From assembly GCA_016184115.1 (NCBI GenBank), contig JACPDH010000080.1:6116-70115 (forward strand): a stretch of DNA of 64,000 nucleotides, in the 5' to 3' direction. Position numbers and translations under genes: made by a program. The notes under the pieces are model-generated. The model saw only the letters and a program-made list of their open reading frames with translations, was not told the DNA's origin and searched no databases. Source of the stretch: Acidobacteriota bacterium (GTDB taxonomy: Bacteria; Acidobacteriota; Thermoanaerobaculia; Gp7-AA8). This document shows, piece by piece, positions 3,096 through 61,600 of the stretch (position 1 is its first letter; each line of letters begins with the position of its first letter).

Positions 3096-4517
3096 CTACG
3101 CCGAGGTACGCTCTGAGCCCGCGCCCTTTCGTGCTCGTCGGGGAGTGACACGCAACCCGCCGAACATGACTCCGACTCGCCGCGCGTCCTCTCGGTTCGG
3201 CGCGATCGACTGCGCGTCGATCGTTTTCGCGACTCTCCATTCGAGCGTGACGAAGTTCCCGACACGCTCGCCGACGACCCTCCTCGGAATCACCCCCCGA
3301 TAGCGACGCGGTCTTCCAGGAATCGCAACCGCGTGCCGCAGCGAGATCTTCGTACCGTTCGCGTAGAGCTCGACGCCACGATAGTGAGCGCGCGCGGCGG
3401 CGTAGATGAGCTCGAACTCGACCGTGTAGTCATGATCGGGCGCAAGCCTCAGGTCGAGCGTCGAAACCGTGCCTGGGCCCGTCCAGCGACCATGCCGCCC
3501 AGGCCCCACTGCCTCGGCTGAGTGCCAGCCACTTCCCTCCACGGGCCCTGCAACATCCCACACGAACGAGCCGCGTGGTTCCGGGCTCGACTCGATGCAG
3601 CGCTGCTGATAGTGCTTCTCCAGTAGCTCGACCATCACCTCAGGCGGAAGTGGCTGTTTCATGTGCGCATGAGATGCCGCTCCGAACCGCTCGAGCAGCA
3701 ACTCGCACATGCGATGGAACCGCTCTTCGAACAGTGCACTCGCGCGCTCGTACATCGCGACATCGACGGAGTTCGCTTCCAACACCGCGTCGACGAGTCG
3801 AGGGGCGAGATCGGCCCTCCGGTTGCCCGTTGCAGCGACGTTGAACGACTGGTAGTTCGTCGCAGGCTTCCATCCGAACACAAAGTCGAGCATGAACGCA
3901 GAATCCTGAAAACGCTCGCAGAGCCCGAACATCGCGAAGCTTTCGAGCCGTTCAGCCGCAACGGAAGCCCCCAGGTTGGGAAATAACGAGTCACCGCTTG
4001 CCCACGCTTCGGAATGTCCCATCTTCTGCTGGTGTGTTTTGAGCTGCGCGGCGGGGATCGACGCGACGAAACCCGCTGCCCAGTTCGCCTGAGCGTGGAC
4101 CGTCACCGGATCCGAAAGGAACTCGTCGAGACTCAACGCTCGCGAAACGACGTAGTCGTGCTGGAACGCGTTCGGTGTCCTCGCCACGTAGTGGTAGGTC
4201 GAGACGAGGCGATCGACGGGATGCCTCAGCATCGTGACGAACACCGCGTTTCGAACGGCCTCGCCGATGCTGTAGACGTAATGTCCATTGAACAATCGAT
4301 ACCGGGACAGCTCCTCGCTCGTCCCGAGGTGTGGCCACCACCACTCGTCGGGTCGCGGGTAGCTCTGTCGCACGTCGAAGTGCTTCGCCAAGAGCGCACG
4401 AAACGTCAGTCCGGCAGTCTTCGGAATGTGGACGAACACGAGTCGCTCGTCGGCGGTCAGTCGATGCTCGAGATCAGGCAATGGAGAATCGTCACACAGA
4501 TTCGATACCGAAATCAC
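3096..4517 (-). CDS. Sulfotransferase family protein (PAPS-dependent; the HIPKTAGLTF 5'-PSB-like motif is present).
   Basis: N-terminal motif FVHIPKTAGLTF is typical of the sulfotransferase family (NodH/HS-sulfotransferase-like PKTGGT motif). 473-aa ORF with good codon bias. Confidence 0.65.
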   Translation of the reverse strand: MISVSNLCDDSPLPDLEHRLTADERLVFVHIPKTAGLTFRALLAKHFDVRQSYPRPDEWWWPHLGTSEELSRYRLFNGHYVYSIGEAVRNAVFVTMLRHPVDRLVSTYHYVARTPNAFQHDYVVSRALSLDEFLSDPVTVHAQANWAAGFVASIPAAQLKTHQQKMGHSEAWASGDSLFPNLGASVAAERLESFAMFGLCERFQDSAFMLDFVFGWKPATNYQSFNVAATGNRRADLAPRLVDAVLEANSVDVAMYERASALFEERFHRMCELLLERFGAASHAHMKQPLPPEVMVELLEKHYQQRCIESSPEPRGSFVWDVAGPVEGSGWHSAEAVGPGRHGRWTGPGTVSTLDLRLAPDHDYTVEFELIYAAARAHYRGVELYANGTKISLRHAVAIPGRPRRYRGVIPRRVVGERVGNFVTLEWRVAKTIDAQSIAPNREDARRVGVMFGGLRVTPRRARKGAGSERTSA

Positions 4518-7397: not shown

Positions 7398-7400
7398 CGG

Positions 7401-7575
7401 GTTGTTGGTTGTTAGTTGTTGGTTGTTAGTTGTTAGACGGGAGTGGGAGGCTGCGGGTGAGTGCCTGAACCTCAACCGTTCGCGAGTCGGCACCAACACT
7501 CCCGCGGCACATATGTCGCGCGCAACTACCCACGCCTGTCTAACAACTAACAACCGACAACCAGCAACCAACAAC
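7401..7575. repeat. Inverted arrays of heptamer tandem repeats. The left arm (GTTGTTG/GTTGTTA)x5 is at 7401-7438 and the right arm (CTAACAA/CCAACAA)x5 is at 7538-7575. The ~100-bp core carries its own nested hairpin (cgggagtg…cactcccg). The element fills the whole convergent intergenic region.
   Basis: Direct reading of the sequence: gttgttggttgttagttgttggttgttagttgttag … ctaacaactaacaaccgacaaccagcaaccaacaac. Confidence 0.85.
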
Positions 7576-7579
7576 TCCT

Positions 7580-11809: not shown

Positions 11810-11922
11810 CGTGCAAGGTTGGCTCGGCGCTCACGCGCCGAGCCAACCTTGGTCAGCGTCGAGCAACCACAGCCCGGCCGCCCGCTTGCGGATTGACCTT
11901 TGGCACTTGGTCTCCGCCCGCC

Positions 11923-19290: not shown

Positions 19291-19314
19291 CGACAGGGAG
19301 GGAGGAGGGTAGAC

Positions 19315-19433
19315 GGCAGAAAGCAGACGCCAGAAGGCACAAGTCAGAAGGCGAATCGGAGAACGCTAATTCACGCTCCGAAATCTGATATCTGCCATTC
19401 TCCGTTTCTGCCTTCTGGTTTCCGCCTTCTGCC
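19315..19433. terminator. Inverted heptamer arrays, (NNCAGAA)x7 then a spacer then (TTCTGNN)x5, forming a long hairpin between the convergent fahA and cupin genes. Probably a bidirectional terminator.
   Basis: ggcagaaagcagacgccagaaggcacaagtcagaaggcgaatcggagaacg … cattctccgtttctgccttctggtttccgccttctgcc. Confidence 0.6.
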
Positions 19434-19792
19434 TAAATCCGTTCCGGCTCCGCGACTGTCCGATCGCCACCTGCGTTGCCGGTGTTGAGCGTCGAAGCTG
19501 GCTCGAAGAGAAGCACAGAGACCTCAGCCTCCGCGACAGGCCGATGCTCCACTCCGCGCGGAACGACGATGAACTCACCCTCGGCGATCGGCACTTGTCG
19601 GTCGCGGAACTCCATCACGAATCGACCTGCGAGGACGAGGAACATCTCGTCTTCGCGCTCATGCTGATGCCAGACGAACTCGCCCTGAAACTTCACGAGC
19701 TTCACATGTTGGCCGTTGAGCTCGGCGACGATCTTCGGATCCCAGTGCGTCGAGAATATCGCCAGCTTCTGCGCGAGGTTGATCTTCTCCAT
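19433..19792 (-). CDS. Cupin-domain protein.
   Basis: Cupin 2 motif region (HQHEREDEMFLVLAGRF…VVPRGVEH). The start is at ATG 19792 (MEKINL). Confidence 0.65.
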   Translation of the reverse strand: MEKINLAQKLAIFSTHWDPKIVAELNGQHVKLVKFQGEFVWHQHEREDEMFLVLAGRFVMEFRDRQVPIAEGEFIVVPRGVEHRPVAEAEVSVLLFEPASTLNTGNAGGDRTVAEPERI

Positions 19793-25753: not shown

Positions 25754-25787
25754 TGCGTCTGGTGGAAACGAGTGGCAGGCACGCTCC

Positions 25788-25944
25788 GCTAGCCCCAATG
25801 GCCTGAAGTCAAGAAGAAGAGGCTGAAGTTAGAACGATGAACGATGAAGTTTGAACCCATAAAAGGGCCCCGGGCGGCTTTTCAAGGTTCAACGTTCGCC
25901 GTTCTACGTTCTAACTTCGAGACTTTCGTCCCTGGGTTCAGGCC
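25788..25944 (+). mobile_element. Palindromic MITE-like repeat element, copy 1. It has ~60-bp imperfect inverted arms and an internal (GAANNNT) heptamer periodicity.
   Basis: Matches the reverse complement of 30456..30632 at high identity: ggcctgaag…gaagttagaacgatgaacgatgaagtttgaaccc … gttcaggcc. Confidence 0.7.
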
Positions 25945-26024
25945 GTTTCTGCCAGCACGCATCGTTAGGCTGCACGATCAGCTCGCTCTTCGTCGGATCG
26001 ATCCTTGCGCTTCTCGATTCCCGA

Positions 26025-30436: not shown

Positions 30437-30455
30437 CAGCGATCCTGCGCTTCGC

Positions 30456-30632
30456 GGGCTAGTCCTAATGGCCTGAACTTAGGGACGAAAGTCCTCGAAG
30501 TTCGAACGTGGAGCTTTCAATGCTGAACCCTGAAACCCCCGCTCGAGGCCCCTTTTCTGGGTTCAAACTTCATCGTTCATCGTTCTAACTTCGGCCTCTT
30601 CCTCTTAAGTTCAGGCCATTTAGGCTAGTCCC
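30456..30632 (-). mobile_element. Palindromic MITE-like repeat element, copy 2 (complete). It has ~23-bp terminal inverted repeats GGGCTAGTCCTAATGGCCTGAAC / GTTCAGGCCATTTAGGCTAGTCCC. Its right end supplies the TAG stop codon of msrA.
   Basis: High-identity reverse-complement match to 25788..25944. Located between the convergent holB and msrA genes. Confidence 0.7.
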
Positions 30633-31122
30633 GTACGAAGTGGCAGTTGTAGCCCCACGGGTTCTTCCGCAGGTAGTCCTGGTGGTACTCCTCGGCGTCG
30701 TACCAGGCGGTCGCCGGTACAATCGCCGTAACCAGAGGGCGCGGCCACTTCCCCGACGCGTCGACCTCGGCCTTGACTCGGTCGGCGGTCGCCCTCTGCT
30801 CCTCCGAGTGAACGAAGATCGCAGAGCGGTACTGCGTGCCGACGTCGTTCATTTGCCTGTTCAGCTGCGTCGGGTCGTGCATTCGGAAGAAGAAGCGGAG
30901 GATCTCCTCGTAGGAGATGACCGCGGGATCGAAGGTGATCTTCACGGCTTCTGCGTGCCCGCTATTGCCCTTCTTGACGTAGTCATACGTCGGGTCGTCG
31001 AGCGTGCCGCCGGTGTAGCCGACGACGGTTTCGACGACGCCTGGCAACTGGCGAATCAACTCCTCGACACCCCAGAAGCAGCCCCCGGCCAACGTCGCGG
31101 TCTCTCGATTCGGTTCGGTCAT
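30625..31122 (-). CDS. msrA: Peptide methionine sulfoxide reductase A.
   Basis: Active-site motif GGCFWGVEE. ~165 aa. Confidence 0.85.
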   Translation of the reverse strand: MTEPNRETATLAGGCFWGVEELIRQLPGVVETVVGYTGGTLDDPTYDYVKKGNSGHAEAVKITFDPAVISYEEILRFFFRMHDPTQLNRQMNDVGTQYRSAIFVHSEEQRATADRVKAEVDASGKWPRPLVTAIVPATAWYDAEEYHQDYLRKNPWGYNCHFVRD

Positions 31123-31303
31123 GTCGATTCTCCTTGAGGCCTTGGGGCTACGCCCGATCTTCGAAACCGGAGGGCGGCGCCGGTTCGTTCCCGACGCCCG
31201 CTCCCATGCTCCCATCCCAGGTTGAAACGACCGCGAAGGGTAAACGATTGGCGCACCCTCCCGGATTGGTACAATGCGCGGCCGGCTTCGAGCCGCACCG
31301 GCC

Positions 31304-32626
31304 ATGGACTTCTGGTACCTGATTCTTTCGTTCCTTTTCGTTGCGGCGAACGGCTACTTCGTCGCCGCAGAATTCGCGATCGTCAAAGTCCGCGCGACGC
31401 AGCTTGCCGAGCTGGAGGCGAAGGGATCGAAGGCGGCCACGATCGGCCGGCTCCTCACGCGCGAGCTCGACGCATACCTCTCGGCGACTCAGCTCGGCAT
31501 CACGCTCTCCTCGCTCGCCCTGGGCTGGATCGGCGAGCCGGCATTCGCCCACATCATCGAGCCGGTGTTCGAAAACTACGGTGCGCTCGCTCCCGCGCTC
31601 GCACACTCGATCTCGGCAAGTGTTGCCTTCGTCATCATCTCGATTCTCCACATCGTCTTCGGCGAGCTCGTCCCGAAATCGCTCGCGATCCAGAAGCCGA
31701 TCGTCACCACACTCTGGGTCGCCCATCTCCTCCGCTTCTTTTACATCGTGATGTACCCGGCGATCTGGCTCCTCAACGGCACGGCCCGGTTCATTCTCAA
31801 GTCGATCGGCATCGCGCCCGCCTCGGATCACGAGCTCGCGCACTCCGCCGAAGAACTGAGGCTGATCCTGGCCGACTCGGAGAGGGCGGGTGTCCTTTCG
31901 CAACCAAAGAAGGAGATCATCGAAGGGGTTTTCCAGTTCTCCAAGCGAACCGCGCGCCAGATCATGGTTCCGCGCACCGACGTTTTCGTGCTCTCGACGA
32001 CGAATACGATCGAGCAGAACCTTGAAGTGATCCGAAACTCGCGCCACACCCGCTACCCTCTTTGCGAGGGCAATCTCGACCGCACAGTTGGCCTCATCCA
32101 TGTCAAGGACCTCTTTCTTGCGCAGCTCCGAGGACCTGGGCGCAGCCTTGGGGAGCTCCGTCGCGACATCCTATTCGTACCGGAGAACACGACGGTCGAG
32201 CACCTCCTCGAACAGTTCCTCGAGCAACGAACGCACATGGCTGTGATTCTCGACGAATATGGCGGCGCTTCCGGCATCGTCTCGATGGAGAACATCACCG
32301 AAGAGCTCTTCGGGCAGATCCAGGATGAGTTCGATCGCGAACGGCTCGAAGTCGAGCCCCTCGGAGATGGGCGATACCGCGTTCGAGGCGACTACTTGAT
32401 CGAGGACCTTGCCGGACGGCTCCGTATTGACGTCGGGAAGCCGGCGGAGGAGACGATTGGAGGCTATGTCGCCGCAAATCTCGGGCGTGAGGTGCAGCCG
32501 GGCGATCGCTGCTCGCTAGGGCCCCTCGAGATCGAGGTGATCGAAGGCGAACGTTATCGTGTCCGTTGGGTGCTCGTCGTCGCGCCGCAATTGCCTCCGG
32601 AAGACGAAGGCACCAGCGCGGAGTGA
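31304..32626 (+). CDS. CNNM/HlyC-CorC-family transporter (DUF21 + CBS pair + CorC_HlyC).
   Basis: N-terminal DUF21 TM region (LSAT QLGITL), CBS domains, and the C-terminal CorC motif region. Confidence 0.8.
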   Translation: MDFWYLILSFLFVAANGYFVAAEFAIVKVRATQLAELEAKGSKAATIGRLLTRELDAYLSATQLGITLSSLALGWIGEPAFAHIIEPVFENYGALAPALAHSISASVAFVIISILHIVFGELVPKSLAIQKPIVTTLWVAHLLRFFYIVMYPAIWLLNGTARFILKSIGIAPASDHELAHSAEELRLILADSERAGVLSQPKKEIIEGVFQFSKRTARQIMVPRTDVFVLSTTNTIEQNLEVIRNSRHTRYPLCEGNLDRTVGLIHVKDLFLAQLRGPGRSLGELRRDILFVPENTTVEHLLEQFLEQRTHMAVILDEYGGASGIVSMENITEELFGQIQDEFDRERLEVEPLGDGRYRVRGDYLIEDLAGRLRIDVGKPAEETIGGYVAANLGREVQPGDRCSLGPLEIEVIEGERYRVRWVLVVAPQLPPEDEGTSAE

Positions 32627-33212: not shown

Positions 33213-33222
33213 GCGAGTGCGG

Positions 33223-33278
33223 AGTCCTAAGTCCTGAGTCCTGAGTCCTCAGTCCTCAGTCCTGAGGACTGAGGACTT
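33223..33278. terminator. Heptamer-repeat hairpin: (AGTCCTN)x6 followed directly by (NAGGACT)x2. Perfect 13+ bp stem between convergent genes.
   Basis: agtcctaagtcctgagtcctgagtcctcagtcctcagtcctgaggactgaggact. Confidence 0.65.
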
Positions 33279-33287
33279 CCTCGAAGC

Positions 33288-37590: not shown

Positions 37591-37830
37591 GCGGCCTGCG
37601 AGCTTCGTCGCGACGTCGCAACAAAAAAACATACGGAACGTCCGGTTTGATACACGTCGTCGTCGCACCCTTCATCGTGACCGTTCGCACACCCCTTCCG
37701 CCAGCTTGAGCCTATCCTGCAAGCGTGGGCCTAACGGTCCACAGGCGCCCGGAACGCCTTCGAAGTTGCGATCTGGCCGCCTCAGACGTCGAAAATGGTA
37801 TCGATCGGCCCCGGTATCGACGCTTCAACT

Positions 37831-37874
37831 CCTCGCTGTCACATTTCGACCGATATTGGAATGTGACAGCGAGG
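37831..37874 (+). promoter_or_regulatory. Perfect 15-bp inverted repeat with a 14-nt loop (CCTCGCTGTCACATT-N14-AATGTGACAGCGAGG), upstream of a PilZ gene.
   Basis: Direct reading. Sits in a 390-bp intergenic region. Confidence 0.5.
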
Positions 37875-37976
37875 CCCAACGAAAGATGGTTTCCGGGCGG
37901 AACCCCGCCCGTCATTCTGGAAACGTCGCCGTGCTGCAAACTCACTCGCGGTACGCACCGGTGACGTCACAGGAGC

Positions 37977-52245: not shown

Positions 52246-52258
52246 GATTGCTCGCTCG

Positions 52259-52280
52259 CTTGTTGGTTGTTGGTTGTTAG
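52259..52280. repeat. Solo heptamer array (GTTGTTG/GTTGTTA)x3 between the fumarase alpha and beta subunit genes. It has the same unit as the 7401-7575 element.
   Basis: cttgttggttgttggttgttag. Confidence 0.7.
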
Positions 52281-52285
52281 AGCCG

Positions 52286-53926: not shown

Positions 53927-54640
53927 ATGCCGTCGCCCTATCGGACTCAGGTTGCCCTTGCCTCTCCGAAATCCGATAATTCAGTCGCGATGCCATCCCT
54001 TGCCGACCGGCGCAGGTTTGAGCACCTGACGCTTCCGAAGCCGCTCCCTGCGAGATTCGGCTCGGAGAAGGTCTTCATCCTCGACCTCTCCATCAATGGC
54101 GCTCGGGTCGCGCATCAGCACCCCCAACTGGCGACCTCGTCAGAGTTTCTTCGTTTCGAGTGGCAGGGCGCCGAGCTCGCGTTCGAGTCCGAGGTCCTGC
54201 GGACATCGGCAGATTCGACGAAAATCGGAAGCACGACCGTCTGGGAGTCGGGGCTCTTTTTCCTCGAAGCTGTCGGGGGCTCCGACAGGACGATCCGCGA
54301 GCTCCTCGCCGACCAGATCCTCCGCGTGCTCGATGAGCGGAAAGCGAATGCTCGCGGCATCCCGCCGATCGCCGCGACGTACGTCAAGACGGGTGGCAGG
54401 GAAGGCGGATATGTCATCTGGAGGCTCGCCGGAGGGCAGTGGCGCTCGACGGCGAGCGAGAAGGCAGACCAGCCAGCCGACGGCTTCACCGTTTCGGCGC
54501 GCGAGTCGAGCGACCAGGTGCAGATGTTGCGCGAAACTTACGAGAACTCCGACTTCGAGGGACGCAAGATGATCCGCAAGATGGCGGAGCTCGCAACCTC
54601 GACTCCGGAAGGAGTCGCAACGAGGAAGTTCCAACCTTAA
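53927..54640 (+). CDS. PilZ-domain protein (the start may be the ATG at 53990).
   Basis: DRRRFEH (RxxxR) and DLSINGARV (DxSxxG) motifs. Confidence 0.6.
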   Translation: MPSPYRTQVALASPKSDNSVAMPSLADRRRFEHLTLPKPLPARFGSEKVFILDLSINGARVAHQHPQLATSSEFLRFEWQGAELAFESEVLRTSADSTKIGSTTVWESGLFFLEAVGGSDRTIRELLADQILRVLDERKANARGIPPIAATYVKTGGREGGYVIWRLAGGQWRSTASEKADQPADGFTVSARESSDQVQMLRETYENSDFEGRKMIRKMAELATSTPEGVATRKFQP

Positions 54641-54760
54641 AGACAAGAGAAAGGCGAAAAGAGAGCGCGGACCCTCTTGCAGTTCTCCCTTCCCCTTTTC
54701 CGTTCTCGCTTTTCCCTTCTCCGTTCCCTTTGCTCCTTCCTCCCTGGTCCCCCCTCCCAC
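54639..54760. repeat. Purine-rich arm (AAAGACAAGAGAAAGGCGAAAAGAGAGCG), a short spacer, then pyrimidine-rich heptamer-like array (CCNTTYT)x8. Imperfect inverted configuration.
   Basis: ctcccttccccttttccgttctcgcttttcccttctccgttccctttgctccttcctccc. Confidence 0.5.
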
Positions 54761-54780: not shown

Positions 54781-56031
54781 ATGACGCTACCGATGAGTCG
54801 ACCGGGATCTTCAGCGGATCGCGCGGATGCCATCGCTGGCGCGGCGAGCGGCTTCAAGTCGTTCGAGACCGCTCTCGAGCAGGCCGCCGACGGGATCGCC
54901 CTGTTCGCGCCCGACGCGTCGGGAATCCTCACGGTCAGCTTCGCGAACGCCGCGCTCTGCCGCCTCTTCTCGCGCGCTCCATCCGAGATCGTCGGCATCG
55001 CGGTCGACGAGCTTGGCATTCGCGAAGACGGCGCGAAGAACGACGCGGTCCGCGAACGGCTTCTCGCAGGACAGCGAATCGCCGGCTCGGGCTCCCTTCT
55101 GCGGGCCGATGGTGTCCGCAAAAGCGTCGACGTGAGCATCGTTCCGGTGCGTGGCGACGGCGGCGACGTCTCTCAATGGATCGCGATCTTCCATGACCTT
55201 CGGGAAGTCGACGCTTCGTCGAAAGATGCGGTCGCGGCCGAGCTGGCCGCGCGCGCGGAAGAGTTGCGCGAGGCGATGATCTGGGACCATCTCGTCAACT
55301 ACTACCAGCCGATCGTCGACCTGAAGACGGGGATCGTCACACACGCCGAAGTTCTCGTTCGCTGGAATCATCCGACGCGCGGATTGCTCGGCCCCGACAA
55401 GTTCCTTCCTCTCGCGGAAGCCACGGGACTGATTCGCGACGTCACGATGTGGTGTTTCGAAGATTCGTTCCGGCAGCACCGTGAGTGGCAGAAGGCAGGT
55501 TTGAACGTCGGCCTCGCGATGAACCTCTCCCCGTCGAACCTTCACGACACCGCGATTGCCGAAACGATCACCGAGTTGCTCGAGACATCAGGAGTCGATC
55601 CAGGAATGCTCCGCGTGGAGATCACGGAGAACGCGATTCTCGACGACCCGACGCACGTGCTCGCGCTTCTCTCCCTCTTGCAGACCTTCGGCGTGTCGCT
55701 CTCGCTCGACGACTTCGGCACCGGTTACTCGTCGCTCACGAACCTGCGCGAGGTGCCGTTTCAGGAGATCAAGATCGACAAGTCATTCGTCCTTAACATG
55801 ATGGAGGAGGAGGGCGACCGCGCCGTGGTGCGTGCCGTGATCGACCTCGCCCACAGCCTCGGCAGGCACGTCGTCGCCGAAGGGATCGAGGACGAGCAAA
55901 CGCTCAATCAGCTGCGCAGCTGGGGCTGTGACTACGCCCAGGGCTACTTCATCAGCCGCCCGATCCCACCGGCACAGTTCGAGGTGTGGGCGAGAAACAA
56001 CCTGGCGGGAAAAGCAGGTCAAAGGTCATAG
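54781..56031 (+). CDS. PAS-EAL domain protein (putative c-di-GMP phosphodiesterase).
   Basis: EAL signature motifs (…EVLVRW…, …EITEN…, …DDFGTGYSSL…, …KIDKSFV…, …EGIE…Q…). Confidence 0.8.
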   Translation: MTLPMSRPGSSADRADAIAGAASGFKSFETALEQAADGIALFAPDASGILTVSFANAALCRLFSRAPSEIVGIAVDELGIREDGAKNDAVRERLLAGQRIAGSGSLLRADGVRKSVDVSIVPVRGDGGDVSQWIAIFHDLREVDASSKDAVAAELAARAEELREAMIWDHLVNYYQPIVDLKTGIVTHAEVLVRWNHPTRGLLGPDKFLPLAEATGLIRDVTMWCFEDSFRQHREWQKAGLNVGLAMNLSPSNLHDTAIAETITELLETSGVDPGMLRVEITENAILDDPTHVLALLSLLQTFGVSLSLDDFGTGYSSLTNLREVPFQEIKIDKSFVLNMMEEEGDRAVVRAVIDLAHSLGRHVVAEGIEDEQTLNQLRSWGCDYAQGYFISRPIPPAQFEVWARNNLAGKAGQRS

Positions 56032-56190
56032 GTCAGAGGTCAAGGCAGGCAGGAGTCCGGCGTGAAGGCGTTCGGTCTGCCGGTAAGGCATTGCTCTCGT
56101 CGATCACCGTCGTTCGACCACACCCCGGAGTCGGGCAGCCTTCCACTCCCGCTGCCTGCTATGACCTGTGACCTTTGGCCTGTGGCCTGC
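56015..56190. repeat. Inverted heptamer arrays. (AGGTCAN)x4 is at 56015-56053 and overlaps the stop of the EAL gene. (NTGACCT)x4 is at 56154-56190. They are separated by a ~100-bp spacer.
   Basis: caggtcaaaggtcataggtcagaggtcaaggcaggcagg … ctgcctgctatgacctgtgacctttggcctgtggcctgc. Confidence 0.75.
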
Positions 56191-56246
56191 ATTCAGAAAC
56201 TTCCCCACTCCGTTCACGTAGAGTGTCCCAACTCAGGAGGAATCTC

Positions 56247-57160: not shown

Positions 57161-60100
57161 ATGTTCTTCGAAATCACCCGCTTCGAGCTGAGATTCCAGC
57201 TCCGGCAGCCGATCGTCTGGATCTCGATGGCGATCTTCTGCATTCTCACGTTCTTCGCCGTCACGACCGACAACGTGACGATCGGTGGATCGATTGGCGC
57301 GGTGAACCGGAATGCCCCGTATGTGATCGTCCAGATCCTCTCGATCATGTCGATCATCGGCGTGTTTGTGACGACCGCCTTCGTCGCGAACGTCGTGAAC
57401 CGCGACTTCGAGCTCAACACGCACTCGCTCTTCTTCTCGACGCCGATTCTCCGGCGCGACTACCTCGGGGGGCGCTTCCTCGGCGCACTTCTCGTCGCAT
57501 TTCTGATCTTCGTTCCAGTCGCCGGATCGATCTGGCTTGGCAGCCTCATGCCCTGGCTCGAGCAGGAGCGCATTGGCCCGTTCATGGCGGCGCCCTACCT
57601 TTACTCGCTCCTGTTCATGGTCCTGCCGAACCTGTTCTTCATGTCGGCGATCTTTTTCTCGCTCGCGGCGCTGACGCGAAGCATGATGTACACCTACGTC
57701 GGCGTCGTCGCCTTCTTCGTCCTCTACGGCGTGTCGCAGTCGATGATGGCCGATCTCGACAACCAGACGATCGCCGCGCTCGCCGACCCGTTCGGGCTGG
57801 CCGCATTCGAGCTAACGACGAAGTACTGGACCGTGTTCGAGCGCAATGCGCTCGTCCCCGCGATCGGAGGACCGATTCTCGTCAATCGCATCGTCTGGAC
57901 GATCATCGGTGCGCTCGTCGTCGTGTCCACCATTCGCTCGTTCAAATTCACGGCGACGCTGGAAGGAAGGAAATCCAGGAAACGCAGAGCGAATGCAGGC
58001 TCGAACGAAATGGTCACACACGTCGGGACCGACGGCCTCCAGCACCTCGCAGCTCCGCGCTCGTTCGACGCCGCCGCGCAGTTCCGTCAGTACCTTCGTC
58101 AGGCTTCGATCGAGCTCTCGTCGACGCTCACGAGCGCCCCCTTCATCGTCCTCGTGCTGATCGGAATCCTAAACATCATCGGGAACAGCCTCGCGCTCAA
58201 TCAGCTTTTCGACACACCCATCTGGCCGGTCACCTCGGCGATGATTCAGGTGATCAGCGGATCGTTCTTCCTCTACGTCTTCATCATCCTCGTCTTCTTC
58301 GGCGGCGAGCTCGTCTGGAAGGAGCGACAGCTCAAACTCAATGAAGTCTACGATGCTCTGCCTGTCCCTAACTGGGTGATCTGGGCATCGAAAATTACCG
58401 CGCTCGCGGCGGCGATCGTTACCCTCCAGCTCGTCGCGGCGCTCACCTCGATCGGCTTCCAGATCGCGAACGGCTATTCGAACGTCGAGATTCGGACGTT
58501 TGCACTAGGCCTAACTCTAGACCAGGGCGTGATCTTCTTTCTCCTCGCGGCGACCCTCTCGTTCTTCGTCCCCTCCGCCGCATGGGGCTCGAGCACGTGC
58601 TCTACCGCTACGCGCAGGTGCCGCCGAACCCCTGGTCCGACATGAACGGCTACGGCCATTTCATGCAAGGCATGATCTCGGTCTACGCCTATTGGATCGC
58701 GGTCGCGGCGATCCTCCTGGTCGTCGTCCATCTCTTCTGGGTGAGAGGGACGGAGTCGGCGTTCGCGACACGCGCGACGCTCGCACTTCGCCGCCTCACG
58801 CGCGGCTCGATCGCCGCGCTCACCCTGGCACTCGCCGTCGCGGCCTCACTCGGCGGCTGGATCTTCTACAACACAAACGTCGTCAACAAGTACATCACCA
58901 CGAACGACTTCGAGCAGTCGCAGGCGGAGTTCGAGACGAAGTACAAGAAGTTCGAGGGGCTCGCGCAGCCGCGCATCGTCGACGTCAAGGCCGACGTCGA
59001 TCTCTTCCCCGCGGAACGCGACGCGAACATCCGCGGCAGCTACCTCCTGAAGAACAAGACCGCGGCGCCGATCGGCGAGCTCCACCTCTGGCTCAGCCCG
59101 CTCGTGAAGGGGCGAACGATCGTCGTCCCCGGAGCGAAGGTGCGCGAGAGCGACGCGAAGTTCGGCTACACGATCTACACCCTCGCGAAACCGATGCAGC
59201 CGGGCGAGACCATGACCCTGACGTTCGAACTCGAAATTCGCAACGACGGCTTCACCAACAACCGCGGCGTCACCAACTTCGTCGAGAACGGCACCTTCTT
59301 CAACAACTACGAGTGGTTCCCCTACGTCGGCTACCAACCGGGGAACGAACTCGTCGACACGAACAAGCGGCGCAAGTACGGCCTCGAACCGATCCAGCGC
59401 ATGCCGAAGCTCGGCGATCCCAAATGGCTCGGCACCAACTACCTCGGCACGCAATCCGACTGGCTGAACTTCGAGACGACCGTCTCGACGAGCGCCGATC
59501 AGATCGCCATCGCGCCCGGCTATCTCCAGCGCGAATGGACGAAGGATGGGCGCCGCTACTACCACTACAAGATGGACGCGCCGATCCTCGGTTTCTGGTC
59601 GTACCTCTCCGCGCGATACACGGTGAAGCGCGACCGCTGGAACGACGTCGCGATCGAGGTCTACTACCACGAGCCGCACGCCTTCAACGTCGATCGGATG
59701 ATCGAATCGGTCAAGAGATCGCTCGACTACTACACGACGAACTTCGGCCCCTACCAGCACAAGCAGGTCCGCATCATCGAATTTCCGGGCTACGAGCGCT
59801 TTGCTCAGGCGTTCCCTAACACGATTCCCTTCTCCGAGTCGATCGGATTCGTCGCGCGAATCGAAAAACCCGAGGACATCGACTACGTCTTCTACGTGAC
59901 GGCGCACGAAGTCGCGCACCAGTGGTGGGCACACCAGGTCATCGGCGCCAACATGCAAGGGGCGACGGTCCTCTCGGAGACCCTCTCCCAATACTCCGCT
60001 CTCATGGTCATGGAAAAGGAGTACGGCAAGCAGACGATGAAGCGCTTCCTGAAGTACGAGCTCGAGAGCTACCTTCGCGGACGAGGGAGCGAGCTCGTCG

Positions 60101-60693
60101 GCGAAACACCGCTCGAGCGCGTCGAGAATCAGGGCTACATCCACTACCGGAAGGGCTCGCTCGTCATGTACGCGCTGCGCGACTACATGGGCGAAGAAGC
60201 GCTGAACCGCGCGCTCGCCAGGTTCGTCGCCGACCACAAGTTCGCCGAGCCGCCATACCCTACTTCTCTCGACCTGCTCAGCTACATTCGCGCCGAAGCG
60301 TCGCCCGAGCTGCAGCCCGTAATCACTGACCTGTTCGAGTCGATCACGATCTACGAGAACAAGGCGACCGCCGCCTCGGCATCGAAGCGCGCCGACGGGA
60401 AATGGGTGGTATCGCTCGAGATCGCGGCGGGCAAGTACCACGCAACCGCCGCAGGAAAGGAAGAGCCGGTGAAGATCGGCGACCTCATCGACATCGGCAT
60501 CCTCGGCGACGACCCGAAAGACAAGACCCGCGGCGCTCCCATCCTCTATCTCGAGAAGAAGCGAATCGATCGACCCAAAATGAAGTTCGAAATCGTCGTC
60601 GATCGCGAGCCGTCGAAAGCCGGCATCGACCCGCTCAACAAGCTCATCGACCGAAACCCCGAAGACAATCTGAAGGCAGTGGAACGAAAGTAG
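57161..60693 (+). CDS. ABC-2 type permease fused to an M1-family (aminopeptidase N-like) zinc metallopeptidase. The reading frame is interrupted by a 1-nt frameshift near 58570-58590; the two ORFs in the track are 57161..58645 and 58582..60693.
   Basis: The first ORF has 8+ TM helices and ends in Arg-rich junk after …LSFFVPS. The second ORF starts with more TM helices and continues into an M1 domain with HEVAHQWW…E (HExxH-18-E). The two overlap by 64 nt in different frames. Confidence 0.6.
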
Positions 60694-61083
60694 AAACGCG
60701 AAACGCGGAACGGGAAACACGGAACGCCGAACGGGGAACGCGAAACGCGGAACGGGAAACGCGAAATGTGGAACGGAAAACGCGAAATGTGGAACGCGGG
60801 ATGCGAATGTCGAAACGCGTTACGCGACGAGAAACACAGAACGTTCAAGGCAACCCCAGCCGCACCTCAAACGCGGAGCTCATGAGAGCTAGCTCCTACC
60901 CGGTTCCGCGCCTCATGTAACGGTTTCGCATTTCGCGTTTCGCATTTCGCGTTTCGCATTTCGCGTTCCGCATTCCGCATTTCGCGTTCCGCATTTCGCA
61001 TTTCGCGTTTCGCATTCCGCATTTCGCATTTCGCGTTCCGCATTTCGCGTTCCGCATTTCGTGTTTCGCACTCCGCATTTCGA
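60694..61083. repeat. Large inverted pair of heptamer tandem arrays. (GAAACGC/GGAACGG/GAAATGT…) about x24 is at 60694-60860. (GCATTTC/GCGTTTC/GCGTTCC) about x25 is at 60905-61083. Together they span the whole convergent intergenic region.
   Basis: Direct reading. The ORF-track entries 60402..60920 and 60896..61129 are only translations of the repeats (TRNAERE… and MRNAKCG…). Confidence 0.85.
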
Positions 61084-61470
61084 TTACTTCTTCGGCGTGA
61101 TCTCCTTCTCCTCTCTCCACAACTTCCAACGATCGCGGAAGGTGTAAGGCGTGTACGCGGCCGGTGTGGAGAGAAGTGAGAAGGCGTCGATGGTCGGCAT
61201 CGGAGTCGCGTCGCTGTTGGCTGTTCCTGCGGCTGCAGCGAGAACGAACCCCACGGTGCCGAATCCAGGCACGTGGAGCAGGTAGGGCTCAGGAGCTTTG
61301 ATCTGCGACTCCTCGACGACGACCTCGTAGAGGATGTACATCATCGCCGGTTTCGAATAGTCGGGCTTGTCCTTGTCCTGAGCCTCAGCGGTTTTTGCCG
61401 GCTCGGCGGAGTGCATGGACAGTGCGAACAACGCGGACGCAAACGCGAACGCAGCAATCTTGATCCTCAT
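61084..61470 (-). CDS. Small secreted hypothetical protein.
   Basis: Signal peptide MRIKIAAFAFASALFALS. 128 aa. Confidence 0.45.
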   Translation of the reverse strand: MRIKIAAFAFASALFALSMHSAEPAKTAEAQDKDKPDYSKPAMMYILYEVVVEESQIKAPEPYLLHVPGFGTVGFVLAAAAGTANSDATPMPTIDAFSLLSTPAAYTPYTFRDRWKLWREEKEITPKK

Positions 61471-61600
61471 GTCTACCCTCCTTGGCGTCGGGCGGCGCGC
61501 AAACTGCCCGGTACGCCCCCTCCCATTCTCAAATATAGGACGAACGCGACACGCCGGATGTTGCAATCTTCATTCGGGCTGCCGGTAGAATCGGCGTCGG

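What the first reader, a model, noticed from the sequence alone, without database searches (positions are those of the whole stretch)
60694..61083. Genome-wide motif class: inverted pairs of heptanucleotide tandem arrays as intergenic elements (largest example)
At least seven intergenic loci in this window share one architecture. Each has a tandem array of a 7-nt unit, a spacer of 0-110 bp, and then the reverse-complement array. The loci are:
- 7401-7575, unit GTTGTTR.
- 19315-19433, unit NNCAGAA.
- 33223-33278, unit AGTCCTN, with no spacer.
- 54639-54760.
- 56015-56190, unit AGGTCAN.
- 60694-61083, unit GAAACGC.
- Both MITE-like copies at 25788 and 30456 carry GAANNNT heptamer periodicity inside their arms.
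- A solo GTTGTTR array at 52259-52280.
The heptamer differs at every locus, so this is not one mobile sequence. It looks like a mechanism or selection that repeatedly builds 7-nt-periodic palindromes. Most copies sit between convergent genes, so a terminator or genome-architecture role is likely. Three of them supply the stop codon of the upstream gene: TAG for msrA, the EAL gene and the cupin gene. Heptamer STRR repeats are known in heterocystous cyanobacteria, but I am not aware of this inverted-pair, variable-unit form being described in a GC-rich genome.
Basis: seen in the sequence. Interest (0 to 1): 0.8.

Follow-up and report, generated by a model that had tools for sequence, protein, structure and literature searches.

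The report
Heptamer-repeat hairpins at gene ends
An uncultured Acidobacteriota genome marks many gene ends with long hairpin-forming pairs of 7-base tandem repeats; similar elements are reported in Xanthomonas, cyanobacteria and Geobacter, and their function is still unknown.

Summary
Period 7 is the only enriched tandem-repeat period that is not a multiple of 3: 14 arrays against about 1.7 expected. Most arrays come as inverted pairs that fold into long hairpins (z -4 to -15). The flagged element (60693-61083) has arms of roughly 16-19 and 22-23 GRAACGC units. It exactly fills the gap between the stop codons of a convergent M1-peptidase gene and a small ORF.

The window comes from an Acidobacteria MAG. 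In relatives at 86% protein identity the same element sits at the same place with about 4+4 or 9+8 units. At 74-76% identity it is gone. In more distant orthologues the slot holds ordinary terminators, plain hairpins, or heptamer/octamer pairs with other units.

Units are not unique to a locus. Modules with conserved borders recur at non-orthologous loci in the clade, and units drift at orthologous loci.

The architecture is not new. Convergent pairs, stop-codon abutment and a 4-5 unit mode match the published Xanthomonas GGGAATC repeats. Cyanobacterial STRR hairpins and Geobacter paired heptamer sites are also similar. New here are the phylum, several units that cannot form G-quadruplexes, and the orthologous expansion series.

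Most likely these are slippage-built hairpins marking transcription-unit ends. That function is inferred, not shown.

The parts
60693..60827 (+). Main element (E6), left arm. About 16 good and up to 19 recognisable units of G[AG]AA[CT]G[CGT], decaying towards the centre. It starts at the last base of the peptidase TAG stop codon.
60828..60922 (.). Main element (E6), spacer. It holds decayed inner units and a small central hairpin (GGAGCTC..GAGCT.GCTCC).
60923..61083 (+). Main element (E6), right arm. About 22-23 units of GC[AG]TT[TC]C, the reverse complement of the left-arm unit family and enriched in the T variant. It ends one base before the stop codon of the convergent ORF.
   Evidence: The outer ~50 nt are confirmed by an independent assembly.
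58582..60693 (+). M1 aminopeptidase gene, the C-terminal part of a permease/M1 fusion. Its TAG stop codon abuts the left arm.
   Evidence: Pfam PF01433. 100% identical to the NCBI MAG protein HYU52_12870.
61084..61566 (-). Convergent small ORF of 160 aa. Its TAA stop codon abuts the right arm. The gene is syntenic in relatives.
7398..7579 (.). E1. Five GTTGTTR units, a 103-nt inner palindromic region, then five reverse-complement units. It fills the gap between the stop codons of the LOG-family gene (+) and ThiS (-).
   Evidence: (pair I17: 65-nt arms, 82% complementary). Fold dG -110 kcal/mol, z -14.9.
19297..19435 (.). E2. A CAGAAGG-like array, a spacer, and CCTTCTG units. It lies between the fumarylacetoacetase gene (+) and the cupin gene (-), and the cupin TAG sits at the array edge.
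   Evidence: Fold z -3.0 and -5.1. Identical in two other assemblies.
33215..33280 (.). E3. AGTCCTN units (6-9, depending on the count) run directly into about 2 reverse-complement units with no spacer. It lies between convergent genes (DUF4388 on +, a 966-aa ORF on -).
   Evidence: Perfect 16-bp stem, z -3.7.
54641..54760 (.). E4. A decayed element: a purine-rich left remnant (AAAGGCGAAAAGAGAG) and a pyrimidine-rich right array of period 7/14/21. It is orthologous to a clean AGGCGAR pair in L164.
   Evidence: It no longer folds better than shuffled sequence.
56013..56191 (.). E5. Four AGGTCAN units, a 111-nt spacer, and four reverse-complement units. Both arms have the inner border CTGCCTGC. 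It lies between the EAL gene's stop codon (the TAG is inside the array) and the conserved upstream region of the ABC ATPase gene.
   Evidence: The fold shows 6-bp helices separated by single mismatches, z -7.4.
52259..52280 (+). Solo GTTGTTR array of about 3 units, between the two fumarase subunit genes (both on the minus strand). It is conserved at the same place in L164.
25788..25950 (+). Copy 1 of a ~170-nt dispersed palindromic repeat. This is a separate class, with only about 2.4 GAACGAT units inside.
30456..30627 (-). Copy 2 of the same palindromic repeat, in inverted orientation. Its CTAG terminus supplies the msrA stop codon.

Best explanation
What it is. The flagged region is the largest local example of a clade-wide population of STRR-like heptanucleotide simple-sequence-repeat modules. 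They are usually arranged as convergent inverted pairs and occupy the 3' boundaries of transcription units. They sit either between the stop codons of convergent genes or between a stop codon and the next gene's promoter.

Shown.
- Each pair can fold, as RNA from either strand or as extruded DNA, into a long imperfect hairpin of 30 to about 150 bp.
- The 5' arm is the G-rich version of the unit.
- Copy number changes several-fold between close relatives.
- Unit sequence drifts or is replaced at orthologous positions.
- Modules with conserved borders are dispersed among loci.

Inferred.
- The 7-nt periodicity is a mutational signature. Replication slippage favours about 7-nt units (an idea attributed to Mrazek et al. 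2007) and acts separately in each arm. It is not a recognition code.
- What is retained is the hairpin at the end of the transcription unit. It would act as a terminator or insulator that needs no U-tract and works in both directions, and/or as a block to 3' exonucleases, as proposed for REP/BIME elements and for cyanobacterial STRR hairpins.
For: Position.
- E1, E2, E3 and E6 fill the space between convergent stop codons. E5 lies between a stop codon and a conserved promoter/RBS region.
- In about 20 of 23 pairs from varied genomes, a stop codon lies within about 25 nt of the element edge (crude gene calls).
- The divergent gap in the same syntenic block carries no array (window 61567-61600 and L164 14068-14211).

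Same slot, different occupants. Downstream of the same orthologous gene:
- L002 and L012 have a canonical hairpin + T-tract.
- L024, L025 and L069 have plain hairpins.
- L001 and L003 have heptamer pairs with other units.
- L015 has an octamer pair.

No alternative terminators. Canonical terminators in the window are no more frequent than in shuffled sequence (11 vs 12.4 and 18 vs 12.8). Other convergent gaps carry long plain hairpins.

Folding. z is -11 for E6 and -4 to -17 for the other pairs.

Slippage dynamics.
- The orthologous E6 has about 4+4 units in L164/L165, about 9+8 in L166 and about 16-19+22 in the window.
- The arms have different super-units, 21-mer against 14-mer.
- Unit order is not mirrored between the arms: 78.6% complementarity observed, against 78.6 +/- 1.5% when unit order is shuffled.

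Period specificity. Only periods 7 and 8 form strict inverted pairs. By the looser partner test, a few period-5, 10 and 13 arrays also have partners.

Literature. The same architecture, stop-codon proximity and depletion between divergent genes are reported in Xanthomonas. Termination or transcript-stability roles have been proposed for STRR hairpins.
Against: - There are no transcript data. Termination or stabilisation is inferred from position alone.
- The hairpins lack U-tracts. From my own knowledge, such 'I-shaped' hairpins terminate poorly in vitro with mycobacterial RNA polymerase (Czyz et al. 2014).
- Solo arrays exist that cannot form hairpins. One lies inside an operon, between the fumarase subunit genes.
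- Some pairs are very asymmetric: 4-5 vs 16 units and 2-3 vs about 13 units.
- Arm lengths are not statistically coupled beyond a shared mode of 4-5 units.
- E4 has decayed without being replaced.
- Rehm et al. found no regulatory role in Xanthomonas.
- The slippage idea offers no tested reason for a preference for 7 nt, or for how the two arms come to share one unit.
- The polarity (G-rich 5' arm in 23 of 26 pairs) is unexplained.
Confidence: 0.5

Rival explanations
1. Non-adaptive or selfish repeats. The arrays and pairs are by-products of slippage plus template switching or ectopic copying. They accumulate wherever they do least harm, which is at 3' intergenic space, and have no function of their own. 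Their association with gene ends reflects purifying selection elsewhere: against frameshifts in coding sequence and against disruption of promoters.
For: - Unit drift and wholesale unit replacement at orthologous sites.
- Loss of the element at 74-76% protein identity, and a decayed E4.
- No register-specific complementarity in E6, and no arm-length coupling.
- Very asymmetric pairs.
- Patchy distribution even within Acidobacteriota.
- No function was found in Xanthomonas.
Against: - 54% of period-7 arrays have an inverted partner, against 0.5% of random 35-mers. Pure slippage does not produce inverted partners.
- Both arms are retained across the clade at 86% protein identity.
- The slot is filled by genuine terminators in other lineages.
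- There is a consistent polarity.
- A consistent mode of 4-5 units in unrelated phyla suggests a constraint on size (for Xanthomonas and Geobacter).
Confidence: 0.28
2. Miniature mobile elements of the REPIN/MITE type. The inverted pair, or a bordered array module, is the unit of mobility. It would be mobilised in trans by a transposase that recognises hairpin DNA (for example a RAYT-like or IS110-like enzyme), with the heptamer arrays acting as its arms.
For: - Modules with conserved borders occur at non-orthologous loci. CTGCCTGC-YN-TGRCCT occurs in window E5 (both arms), in L164 region F and in L166 region B. GCTCATCGCCTCTCGCC occurs three times in L164 and once in L166. Neither occurs in the 165 other loci.
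- A pair is nested inside another pair in L164.
- A 250-nt palindrome is inserted in the spacer of the L166 orthologue.
- In Geobacter, IS elements sit at a fixed distance from analogous paired sites.
Against: - No transposase was identified in the window or the fetched loci. ORFs were not all scanned, so this is weak evidence.
- I saw no target-site duplications.
- The GRAACGC unit of the main element occurs at a single locus in all the sequence available.
- Rehm et al. found no association with mobile elements.
Confidence: 0.12
3. DNA-level protein-binding arrays. These would be periodic binding sites for a global regulator or nucleoid-associated protein, as was proposed for the Geobacter paired sites.
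For: - Regular periodicity, with 21-nt super-periods (about two DNA turns) in E3, E4 and E6.
- Aklujkar et al. annotated analogous paired repeats as putative global-regulator sites.
Against: - At least 8 unrelated units occur in about 100 kb of one clade. That would need many proteins, or one that ignores sequence.
- Units drift at orthologous sites.
- The elements sit at gene ends rather than at promoters.
Confidence: 0.06
4. G-quadruplex / i-motif elements, as proposed for the Xanthomonas and Nostoc GGGNATC repeats.
For: Same architecture, and the same preference for about 4 units, as the Xanthomonas repeats.
Against: - The units here (GAAACGC, GTTGTTR, AGTCCTN, AGGTCAN, CAGAAGG, AGGCGAR) have no runs of three G, so they cannot form canonical G4s. 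This can be read directly from the sequence.
- The 4-5 unit mode persists without G4 potential, which weakens the G4 explanation for Xanthomonas as well.
Confidence: 0.02
5. Assembly artefact or chance.
For: The source is a short-read MAG. Tandem arrays break k-mer assemblies, so the exact unit number of the longest array could be wrong.
Against: - Independent assemblies reproduce E2 fully and the edges of E1 and E6.
- Orthologous elements are present in four other assemblies.
- Enrichment is far above simulations.
Confidence: 0.02

Closest known systems
Xanthomonas GGGAATC heptamer repeats (Rehm et al. 2015, PMC4692102)
   Same: - GC-rich genome with intergenic heptamer arrays.
- 70-75 convergent inverted pairs per genome.
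- The G-rich array lies on the coding strand within 0-50 bp of the stop codon, sometimes overlapping it.
- Depleted between divergent genes.
- Mode of about 4 units.
- Length varies between related genomes while the type (solo or pair) is kept.
- Function unknown.
   Different: - Xanthomonas has one dominant G4-capable unit. This clade has many unrelated units that cannot form G4s.
- Arms here reach about 23 units.
- Pairs can be nested.
- Different phylum (Acidobacteriota).
Cyanobacterial STRR (short tandemly repeated repetitive) sequences
   Same: - Heptanucleotide tandem repeats in several unit families per genome.
- Intergenic.
- Can form hairpins (hupS-hupL, and near gene 3' ends).
- Proposed roles in transcript stability or termination (PMC2670836).
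   Different: - STRR are defined in heterocystous cyanobacteria with their own units.
- Paired arrays were reported to be few in Nostoc.
- The units here are unrelated, and the inverted-pair form predominates.
Geobacter metallireducens paired tandem heptamer/octamer sites (Aklujkar et al. 2009, PMC2700814)
   Same: - Several classes of 3-5 tandem 7-9-nt repeats.
- They occur as pairs on opposite strands with a variable spacer, dispersed through the genome.
- Period 8 occurs alongside period 7, as in locus L015 here.
   Different: - They were annotated as putative regulator-binding sites.
- Some lie at a fixed distance from IS elements.
- No analysis of position relative to gene ends is given in the text I read.
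REP / BIME / REPIN elements of enterobacteria and pseudomonads (own knowledge: Gilson, Higgins; Bertels and Rainey 2011)
   Same: - Extragenic palindromic units, often in inverted pairs that form hairpins.
- Mosaic or nested arrangements.
- Located at 3' ends and between convergent genes.
- Reported to stabilise upstream mRNA and attenuate transcription.
- Dispersed families with conserved sequence.
   Different: - REP units are about 20-40-nt imperfect palindromes without internal 7-nt periodicity.
- They are linked to RAYT transposases, which were not looked for here.
Bidirectional intrinsic terminators
   Same: A hairpin between convergent genes that can form in both transcripts. The same genomic slot is used in orthologous loci.
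   Different: There are no flanking A- or U-tracts, and the stems are far longer (30-150 bp against 5-15 bp). Termination is untested.
TAACTGA direct repeats of Beggiatoaceae, cyanobacteria and Bacteroidetes (MacGregor 2015, PMC4679880)
   Same: Intergenic heptamer direct repeats of 2-6 units with a scattered phylogenetic distribution.
   Different: They are mostly solo and lie just upstream of start codons. Only one inverted case was reported, and there is a single unit.

Membership tests
Cyanobacterial STRR | Tandem repeats with a 7-nt unit in non-coding DNA | tested here: met
Cyanobacterial STRR | Characteristic unit sequences (own knowledge: STRR1 CCCCAGT, STRR2 TTGGTCA, STRR3 CAACAGT) and occurrence in heterocystous cyanobacteria | tested here: not met
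   The source is an Acidobacteria MAG. The units are GRAACGC, GTTGTTR, AGTCCTN, AGGTCAN and CAGAAGG. AGGTCAN resembles STRR2 only loosely.
Xanthomonas/Nostoc GGGNATC G4 repeats | Unit GGGNATC with G-tracts able to form a G-quadruplex | tested here: not met
   No unit in the window has a GGG run.
Xanthomonas/Nostoc GGGNATC G4 repeats | Convergent inverted pairs, with the G-rich array on the coding strand next to the stop codon | tested here: met
   compared.
Xanthomonas/Nostoc GGGNATC G4 repeats | Preference for about 4 units per array | tested here: met
   The mode is 4-5 units in 28 pairs.
REP/BIME/REPIN | Conserved extragenic palindromic unit present in many copies per genome | tested here: inconclusive
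   Bordered modules recur at 3-5 loci in about 100 kb of clade sequence. No whole genome was available, and the GRAACGC unit is single-locus.
REP/BIME/REPIN | Association with a RAYT (Y1 transposase) gene | not tested
   Only about 20 window ORFs were scanned against Pfam, and none is a transposase. The whole genome was not available.
Intrinsic (Rho-independent) terminator | Stable GC-containing hairpin at the end of a transcription unit | tested here: met
Intrinsic (Rho-independent) terminator | U-tract immediately 3' of the stem | tested here: not met
   The consensus scan finds no more terminator-like sites than in shuffled sequence, and none at the elements apart from trivial matches inside the arrays. 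The sequences after the right arms lack T-runs.
Intrinsic (Rho-independent) terminator | Transcripts end at the element | not testable with these tools
   No transcriptome data.
MITE | Terminal inverted repeats, target-site duplication and multiple near-identical copies | tested here: inconclusive
   The two ~170-nt copies at 25.8 kb and 30.5 kb align over most of ~170 nt and have conserved termini. The heptamer pairs themselves show no near-identical full-length copies. Target-site duplications were not examined systematically.

The most novel reading that the evidence does not exclude
A process or factor that does not depend on unit sequence builds and maintains 7-nt (sometimes 8-nt) periodic hairpins. 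These would have a fixed polarity (G-rich 5' arm), a preferred size of 4-5 units, and often 6-bp helices separated by single mismatches. They would form a distinct, widespread class of transcription-unit boundary element that needs no U-tract, in Acidobacteriota, Xanthomonadales, cyanobacteria, Geobacter and some Bacteroidota. The period would reflect the footprint of a conserved machine (RNA polymerase, a helicase, a nuclease or a polymerase) rather than chance slippage.
Probability: 0.15. Interest if true: 0.8.

Novelty: new variant of a known kind. Interest (0 to 1): 0.45.

Why it matters
Over-representation of heptamer simple-sequence repeats in bacterial genomes has been reported since at least 2007 (Mrazek et al., as cited). 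From my own knowledge, STRR date from 1990. No accepted function or mechanism exists.

This clade adds three things:
- The Xanthomonas-type architecture (convergent pairs abutting stop codons, about 4 units) occurs with units that cannot form G-quadruplexes. G4 formation is therefore not the common denominator.
- An orthologous series runs from no element, to about 4+4 units, to about 9+8, to about 16-19+22. This allows direct study of how such elements expand and whether pairing is maintained.
- In orthologous loci the same slot is filled by canonical terminators in some lineages and by heptamer or octamer pairs in others. That turns 'are they terminators?' into a clean experiment.

If the elements do mark transcription-unit ends, genome annotation and terminator prediction for poorly studied GC-rich phyla would need a new model.

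Tried and rejected
- Three-frame stop trap. Period 7 cycles a stop codon through all three frames, and many G-rich units contain TGA or TAG. Comparing arms read inward and outward gave 1.37 against 0.94 frames closed, p = 0.07. The main element has no stops in its arrays. Rejected as a general rule.
- Arm-to-arm copying or register-specific selection in E6. The best register gives 78.6% complementarity, equal to shuffled unit order. No support.
- Arm-length coupling across 28 pairs. 16 pairs are within +/-1 unit, against 15.5 when arms are permuted; Spearman 0.20, p = 0.30. No support beyond the shared mode. The three E6 orthologues look symmetric, but n = 3.
- Automatic clustering of units (single linkage, 6 of 7 matches, with rotations and both strands) chained everything into one cluster and was useless. 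I defined families by eye and by exact border motifs instead.
- Rfam and tRNA/tmRNA searches found nothing in the window.
The protein search found the close relatives.
- Exact-protein look-ups failed for the peptidase, the 160-aa ORF, the ABC ATPase and the DUF4388 gene, probably because start codons were called differently.
- Strain-level copy-number polymorphism could not be assessed. Logan contigs break inside perfect arrays.
- Literature searches found no description of heptamer repeats in Acidobacteria in the held library.
Full report
**1. The observation**

The sequence at 60693-61083 is as described. There is a left array of G[AG]AA[CT]G[CGT] heptamers, a spacer of about 95 nt, and a right array of the reverse-complement unit. 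The repeat finder reports arms 60685-60827 and 60940-61082, 143 nt long and 74% complementary. Many alternative registers score equally well.

The other listed loci are also present.

Period 7 stands out:
- With a strict sliding-window criterion, period 7 gives 7 arrays and period 14 gives 5. Every other period from 4 to 15 gives none.
- With a looser criterion there are 14 period-7 arrays, against a mean of 1.7 and a maximum of 6 in Markov-3 simulations. The only other enriched periods are multiples of 3, which come from coding sequence.

The elements are not assembly artefacts:
- Two Logan assemblies from other runs reproduce the 19.3 kb element base for base.
- One Logan contig confirms the first 31 nt of the 7.4 kb array before breaking inside it.
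- Another Logan contig starts inside the right arm of the main element and matches window 61033-61100.
- The exact number of units in the main element remains unverified.

**2. Source and context**

The M1-peptidase ORF upstream of the main element is 100% identical to a protein of an NCBI MAG annotated as 'Acidobacteria bacterium' (HYU52_12870). The nearest relatives are Thermoanaerobaculia MAGs. GC content is about 63%. There are no Rfam or tRNA hits.

Using GC3-based gene calls and Pfam:
- E1 (7398-7579) lies between the stop codons of a LOG-family gene (+) and ThiS (-).
- E2 lies between fumarylacetoacetase (+) and a cupin gene (-).
- E3 lies between a DUF4388 gene (+) and a 966-aa ORF (-).
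- E6, the main element, lies between the peptidase (+) and a 160-aa ORF (-). In these four cases the element essentially fills the gap between convergent stop codons.
- E5 lies between the EAL gene's stop codon, which is inside the array, and the upstream region of an ABC ATPase gene.
- E4 lies between tandem genes.
- The solo GTTGTTR array lies between the two fumarase subunit genes.

msrA is 30625-31305 (minus strand), and its TAG comes from the CTAG end of the palindromic repeat.

**3. Structure**

- The main element folds into an imperfect hairpin of about 150 bp on either strand: dG -205 and -224 kcal/mol, z about -11.
- E1, E2, E3, E5 and the pairs found in other genomes give z of -3 to -17.
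- E5 folds as 6-bp helices separated by single mismatches at the variable seventh position.
- E4 no longer folds better than shuffled sequence, so it is a decayed element.
- Canonical hairpin + T-tract terminators are no more frequent in the window than in shuffled sequence.
- Other convergent gaps contain long plain hairpins, for example a perfect 17-bp stem at about 11814-11851.

**4. The two 'MITE-like' copies**

Copy 1 (+) and copy 2 (-) align over most of ~170 nt and have conserved termini (CTAGCCCnAATGGCCTGAA...). They are a genuine dispersed palindromic repeat containing about 2.4 GAACGAT units. They should not be pooled with the locus-specific arrays.

**5. Distribution in other genomes**

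I collected 162 loci (2.5 Mb with the window) around peptidase homologues from many phyla.
- Among the non-multiple-of-3 periods tested (5, 7, 8, 10, 11, 13), period 7 is the commonest (63 arrays), followed by period 8 (37).
- Strictly defined inverted pairs occur only for periods 7 and 8.
- 54% of period-7 arrays and 32% of period-8 arrays have a reverse-complement partner within 350 nt. Only 0.5% of random 35-mers do.
- Pairs occur in Acidobacteriota (L001, L003, L015, L071), Steroidobacter (L013), Luteimonas (L054, with the Xanthomonas-like unit GGGATTC) and Adhaeribacter (L029). No array was detected in the Massilia and Janthinobacterium loci or in most other loci.
- In about 20 of 23 pairs a flanking stop codon lies within about 25 nt of the element (crude gene calls).
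- The 5' arm has G>C in 23 of 26 pairs. The two-sided binomial is about 1e-4, but some pairs are orthologous and so not independent.
- The modal arm length is 4-5 units.

**6. Orthologous comparisons**

These are the most informative results.

*Close relatives.* Synteny (EAL, ABC ATPase, permease/M1 peptidase (+), small gene (-), CHAD (+)) is conserved in relatives at 86%, 76% and 74% protein identity. The gap between the peptidase stop codon and the small gene's stop codon varies as follows.

| Locus | Protein identity | Gap (nt) | Content |
|---|---|---|---|
| L164 = L165 (two independent assemblies) | 86% | 83 | about 4+4 units of the same GRAACGC family |
| L166 | 86% | 407 | about 9+8 units, with a foreign 250-nt palindrome in the spacer |
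| window | 100% | 390 | about 16-19+22 units |
| L167 | 76% | 57 | no heptamers |
| L168 | 74% | 389 | no heptamers, but an unrelated long inverted repeat |

The element is therefore vertically inherited within a shallow clade, and its copy number changes about five-fold.

*Arms of the window copy.* The two arms have different super-units, a 21-mer against a 14-mer. Their dominant variants differ (GAAACGC against GAAATGC). Unit order is not mirrored: 78.6% complementarity, against 78.6 +/- 1.5% for shuffled unit order. The arms are currently expanding independently.

*Distant orthologues.* Downstream of the same gene, the slot holds canonical hairpin + T-tract terminators (L002, L012), plain hairpins (L024, L025, L069), heptamer pairs with other units (L001 GTGCTGA, L003 GCTGTTG) or an octamer pair (L015 GTCGCAAA).

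**7. Units are dispersed, fast-evolving families**

- L164 and L166 are as rich as the window, with 13 arrays in 23.6 kb and 7 in 14.7 kb. Apart from one weak period-5 array in each and one period-8 call overlapping a heptamer array in L166, no other period is represented.
- In region A, the window's decayed E4 is orthologous to a clean AGGCGAR pair in L164 (4-5 against 16 units). The flanks are conserved and the unit has drifted.
- In region B, the window and L166 carry AGGTCAN. L164 carries an AGGCGAR pair with an AAGAGTC pair nested inside it. The downstream promoter/RBS region is conserved in all three.
- Bordered modules recur at non-orthologous loci. CTGCCTGC-YN-TGRCCT occurs in both arms of window E5, in L164 region F and in L166 region B. 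GCTCATCGCCTCTCGCC occurs three times in L164 and once in L166. Neither occurs in the 165 other loci.
- GRAACGC is confined to the E6 locus.
- The solo GTTGTTR array between the fumarase genes is conserved in L164.
- An apparently solo long array in L166 is the long arm of an asymmetric pair.

**8. What is known**

- According to Rehm et al. and MacGregor, Mrazek et al. 2007 found heptamers to be the most over-represented long simple-sequence repeats in many bacteria and suggested a polymerase-slippage cause.
- Rehm et al. 2015 described GGGAATC arrays in Xanthomonas. They reported 70-75 convergent inverted pairs per genome, the G-rich array on the coding strand within 50 bp of stop codons (including overlap), depletion between divergent genes, a mode of four units, and length variation with conserved type between species. 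No function was found, and they favoured G-quadruplex formation.
- Aklujkar et al. 2009 listed several classes of paired tandem heptamer and octamer sites on opposite strands in Geobacter metallireducens.
- STRR heptamers form hairpins between hupS and hupL and near gene ends in cyanobacteria. Proposed roles are transcript stability, translational coupling or termination.
- No paper in the held library mentions heptameric repeats in Acidobacteria.

**9. Interpretation**

*Shown.* There is a lineage-enriched population of heptamer-array modules, mostly in convergent inverted pairs, at the 3' boundaries of transcription units. They have strong hairpin potential, a polarity rule and a 4-5 unit mode. 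Copy number and units turn over rapidly, and modules are dispersed between loci.

*Inferred, about 0.5.* The hairpin at the end of the transcription unit is the functional entity. It would act as a terminator or insulator that needs no U-tract and works in both directions, and/or as a block to 3' exonucleases. The 7-nt periodicity would be a mutational signature of slippage.

*Main rivals.* The elements may be non-adaptive or selfish repeats tolerated only at gene ends (about 0.28), or REPIN/MITE-like mobile elements (about 0.12).

*G-quadruplex formation.* The unit sequences exclude it for this genome. The persistence of the 4-5 unit mode without G4 potential also weakens that explanation for Xanthomonas.

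*Unexplained.*
- Why 7 nt (and, less often, 8 nt).
- How both arms acquire the same unit.
- Why the 5' arm is the G-rich one.
- What solo arrays inside operons do.

**10. Verdict**

The architecture is already described in other phyla, so this is a new variant (new phylum, several non-G4 units, nested and greatly expanded forms) of a known but unexplained kind. Interest is moderate, at 0.45. The main value is that the comparative series found here makes the terminator question experimentally testable.

Noticed in passing
window 57161-58645 and 58582-60693: The permease/M1-aminopeptidase is a single protein of about 1197 aa in relatives (P0002, P0003, P0010). Here it is split into two overlapping ORFs (494 aa ABC-2 permease and 703 aa M1 peptidase). 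This is probably a frameshift near 58600, either real or a MAG sequencing error.
   Followed up: partly
window 25770-25965 and 30440-30635: Two inverted copies of a ~170-nt palindromic dispersed repeat, alignable over most of their length, with termini CTAGCCCnAATGGCCTGAA. Both lie between convergent genes. The CTAG end of copy 2 supplies the msrA stop codon.
   Followed up: partly
window ~11814-11851: A perfect 17-bp hairpin (CAAGGTTGGCTCGGCGC-TCAC-GCGCCGAGCCAACCTTG) between convergent genes. It has no heptamer periodicity and no T-tract. It seems to be the plain-hairpin version of the same 3'-end slot.
   Followed up: no
window 37591-37976: A 386-nt gap between tandem genes contains a perfect 19-bp stem (CTCGCTGTCACATTTCGAC...GAATGTGACAGCGAG) and several other hairpins (z -3.3).
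   Followed up: no
L015 2714-2752, 7492-7585, 12100-12194: An Acidobacteriota MAG carries an octamer family (AGTCGCAR/AGTCTCAR) at three or more loci, as inverted pairs abutting stop codons. This is a period-8 analogue of the heptamer pairs.
   Followed up: partly
L166 4773-5047: The spacer of the orthologous GRAACGC element contains a ~250-nt palindrome of its own (CGCGTCGCGTAGCGACGGCCG...CGGCCGTCGCTACGCGACGC). It looks like an insertion into the centre of the hairpin.
   Followed up: no
L164 8816-9039: Nested pairs. An AGGCGAR pair encloses an AAGAGTC/AAGAGAG pair in one intergenic region. The whole region folds with dG about -148 kcal/mol and z -13 to -15.
   Followed up: partly
window 56192-56230; L164 9040-9090; L166 136-190: A conserved motif, GAAACTTCCCC-N(8-12)-CGT-N-GTCCCAGC.CAGGAGGA, lies upstream of the ABC ATPase gene in all three genomes. 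It is probably a promoter or 5'-UTR plus ribosome-binding site, immediately downstream of the repeat element.
   Followed up: no
window 52246-52285; L164 4961-5007: On the mRNA strand the solo array between the fumarase subunit genes reads (AACAACC)n just upstream of the downstream start codon. It is CA-rich and unstructured, so it could affect translation initiation rather than termination.
   Followed up: no
L076 4126-4169: Epilithonimonas (Bacteroidota, 37% GC) carries a GTTGTTR array with the same unit as window E1. This is either convergence or a widely favoured unit.
   Followed up: no
L010 1-77: A contig starts with (CCAAGAA)n running directly into its reverse complement (TTCTTCA...). 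This is another zero-spacer heptamer palindrome, at an assembly break.
   Followed up: no
L167 3289-4551: The fumarase subunit genes appear fragmented (48, 82 and 120 aa). A zero-spacer CGTGGGG/CCCCACG-like heptamer palindrome (3871-3942) lies at the position where the window and L164 have the GTTGTTR array.
   Followed up: no
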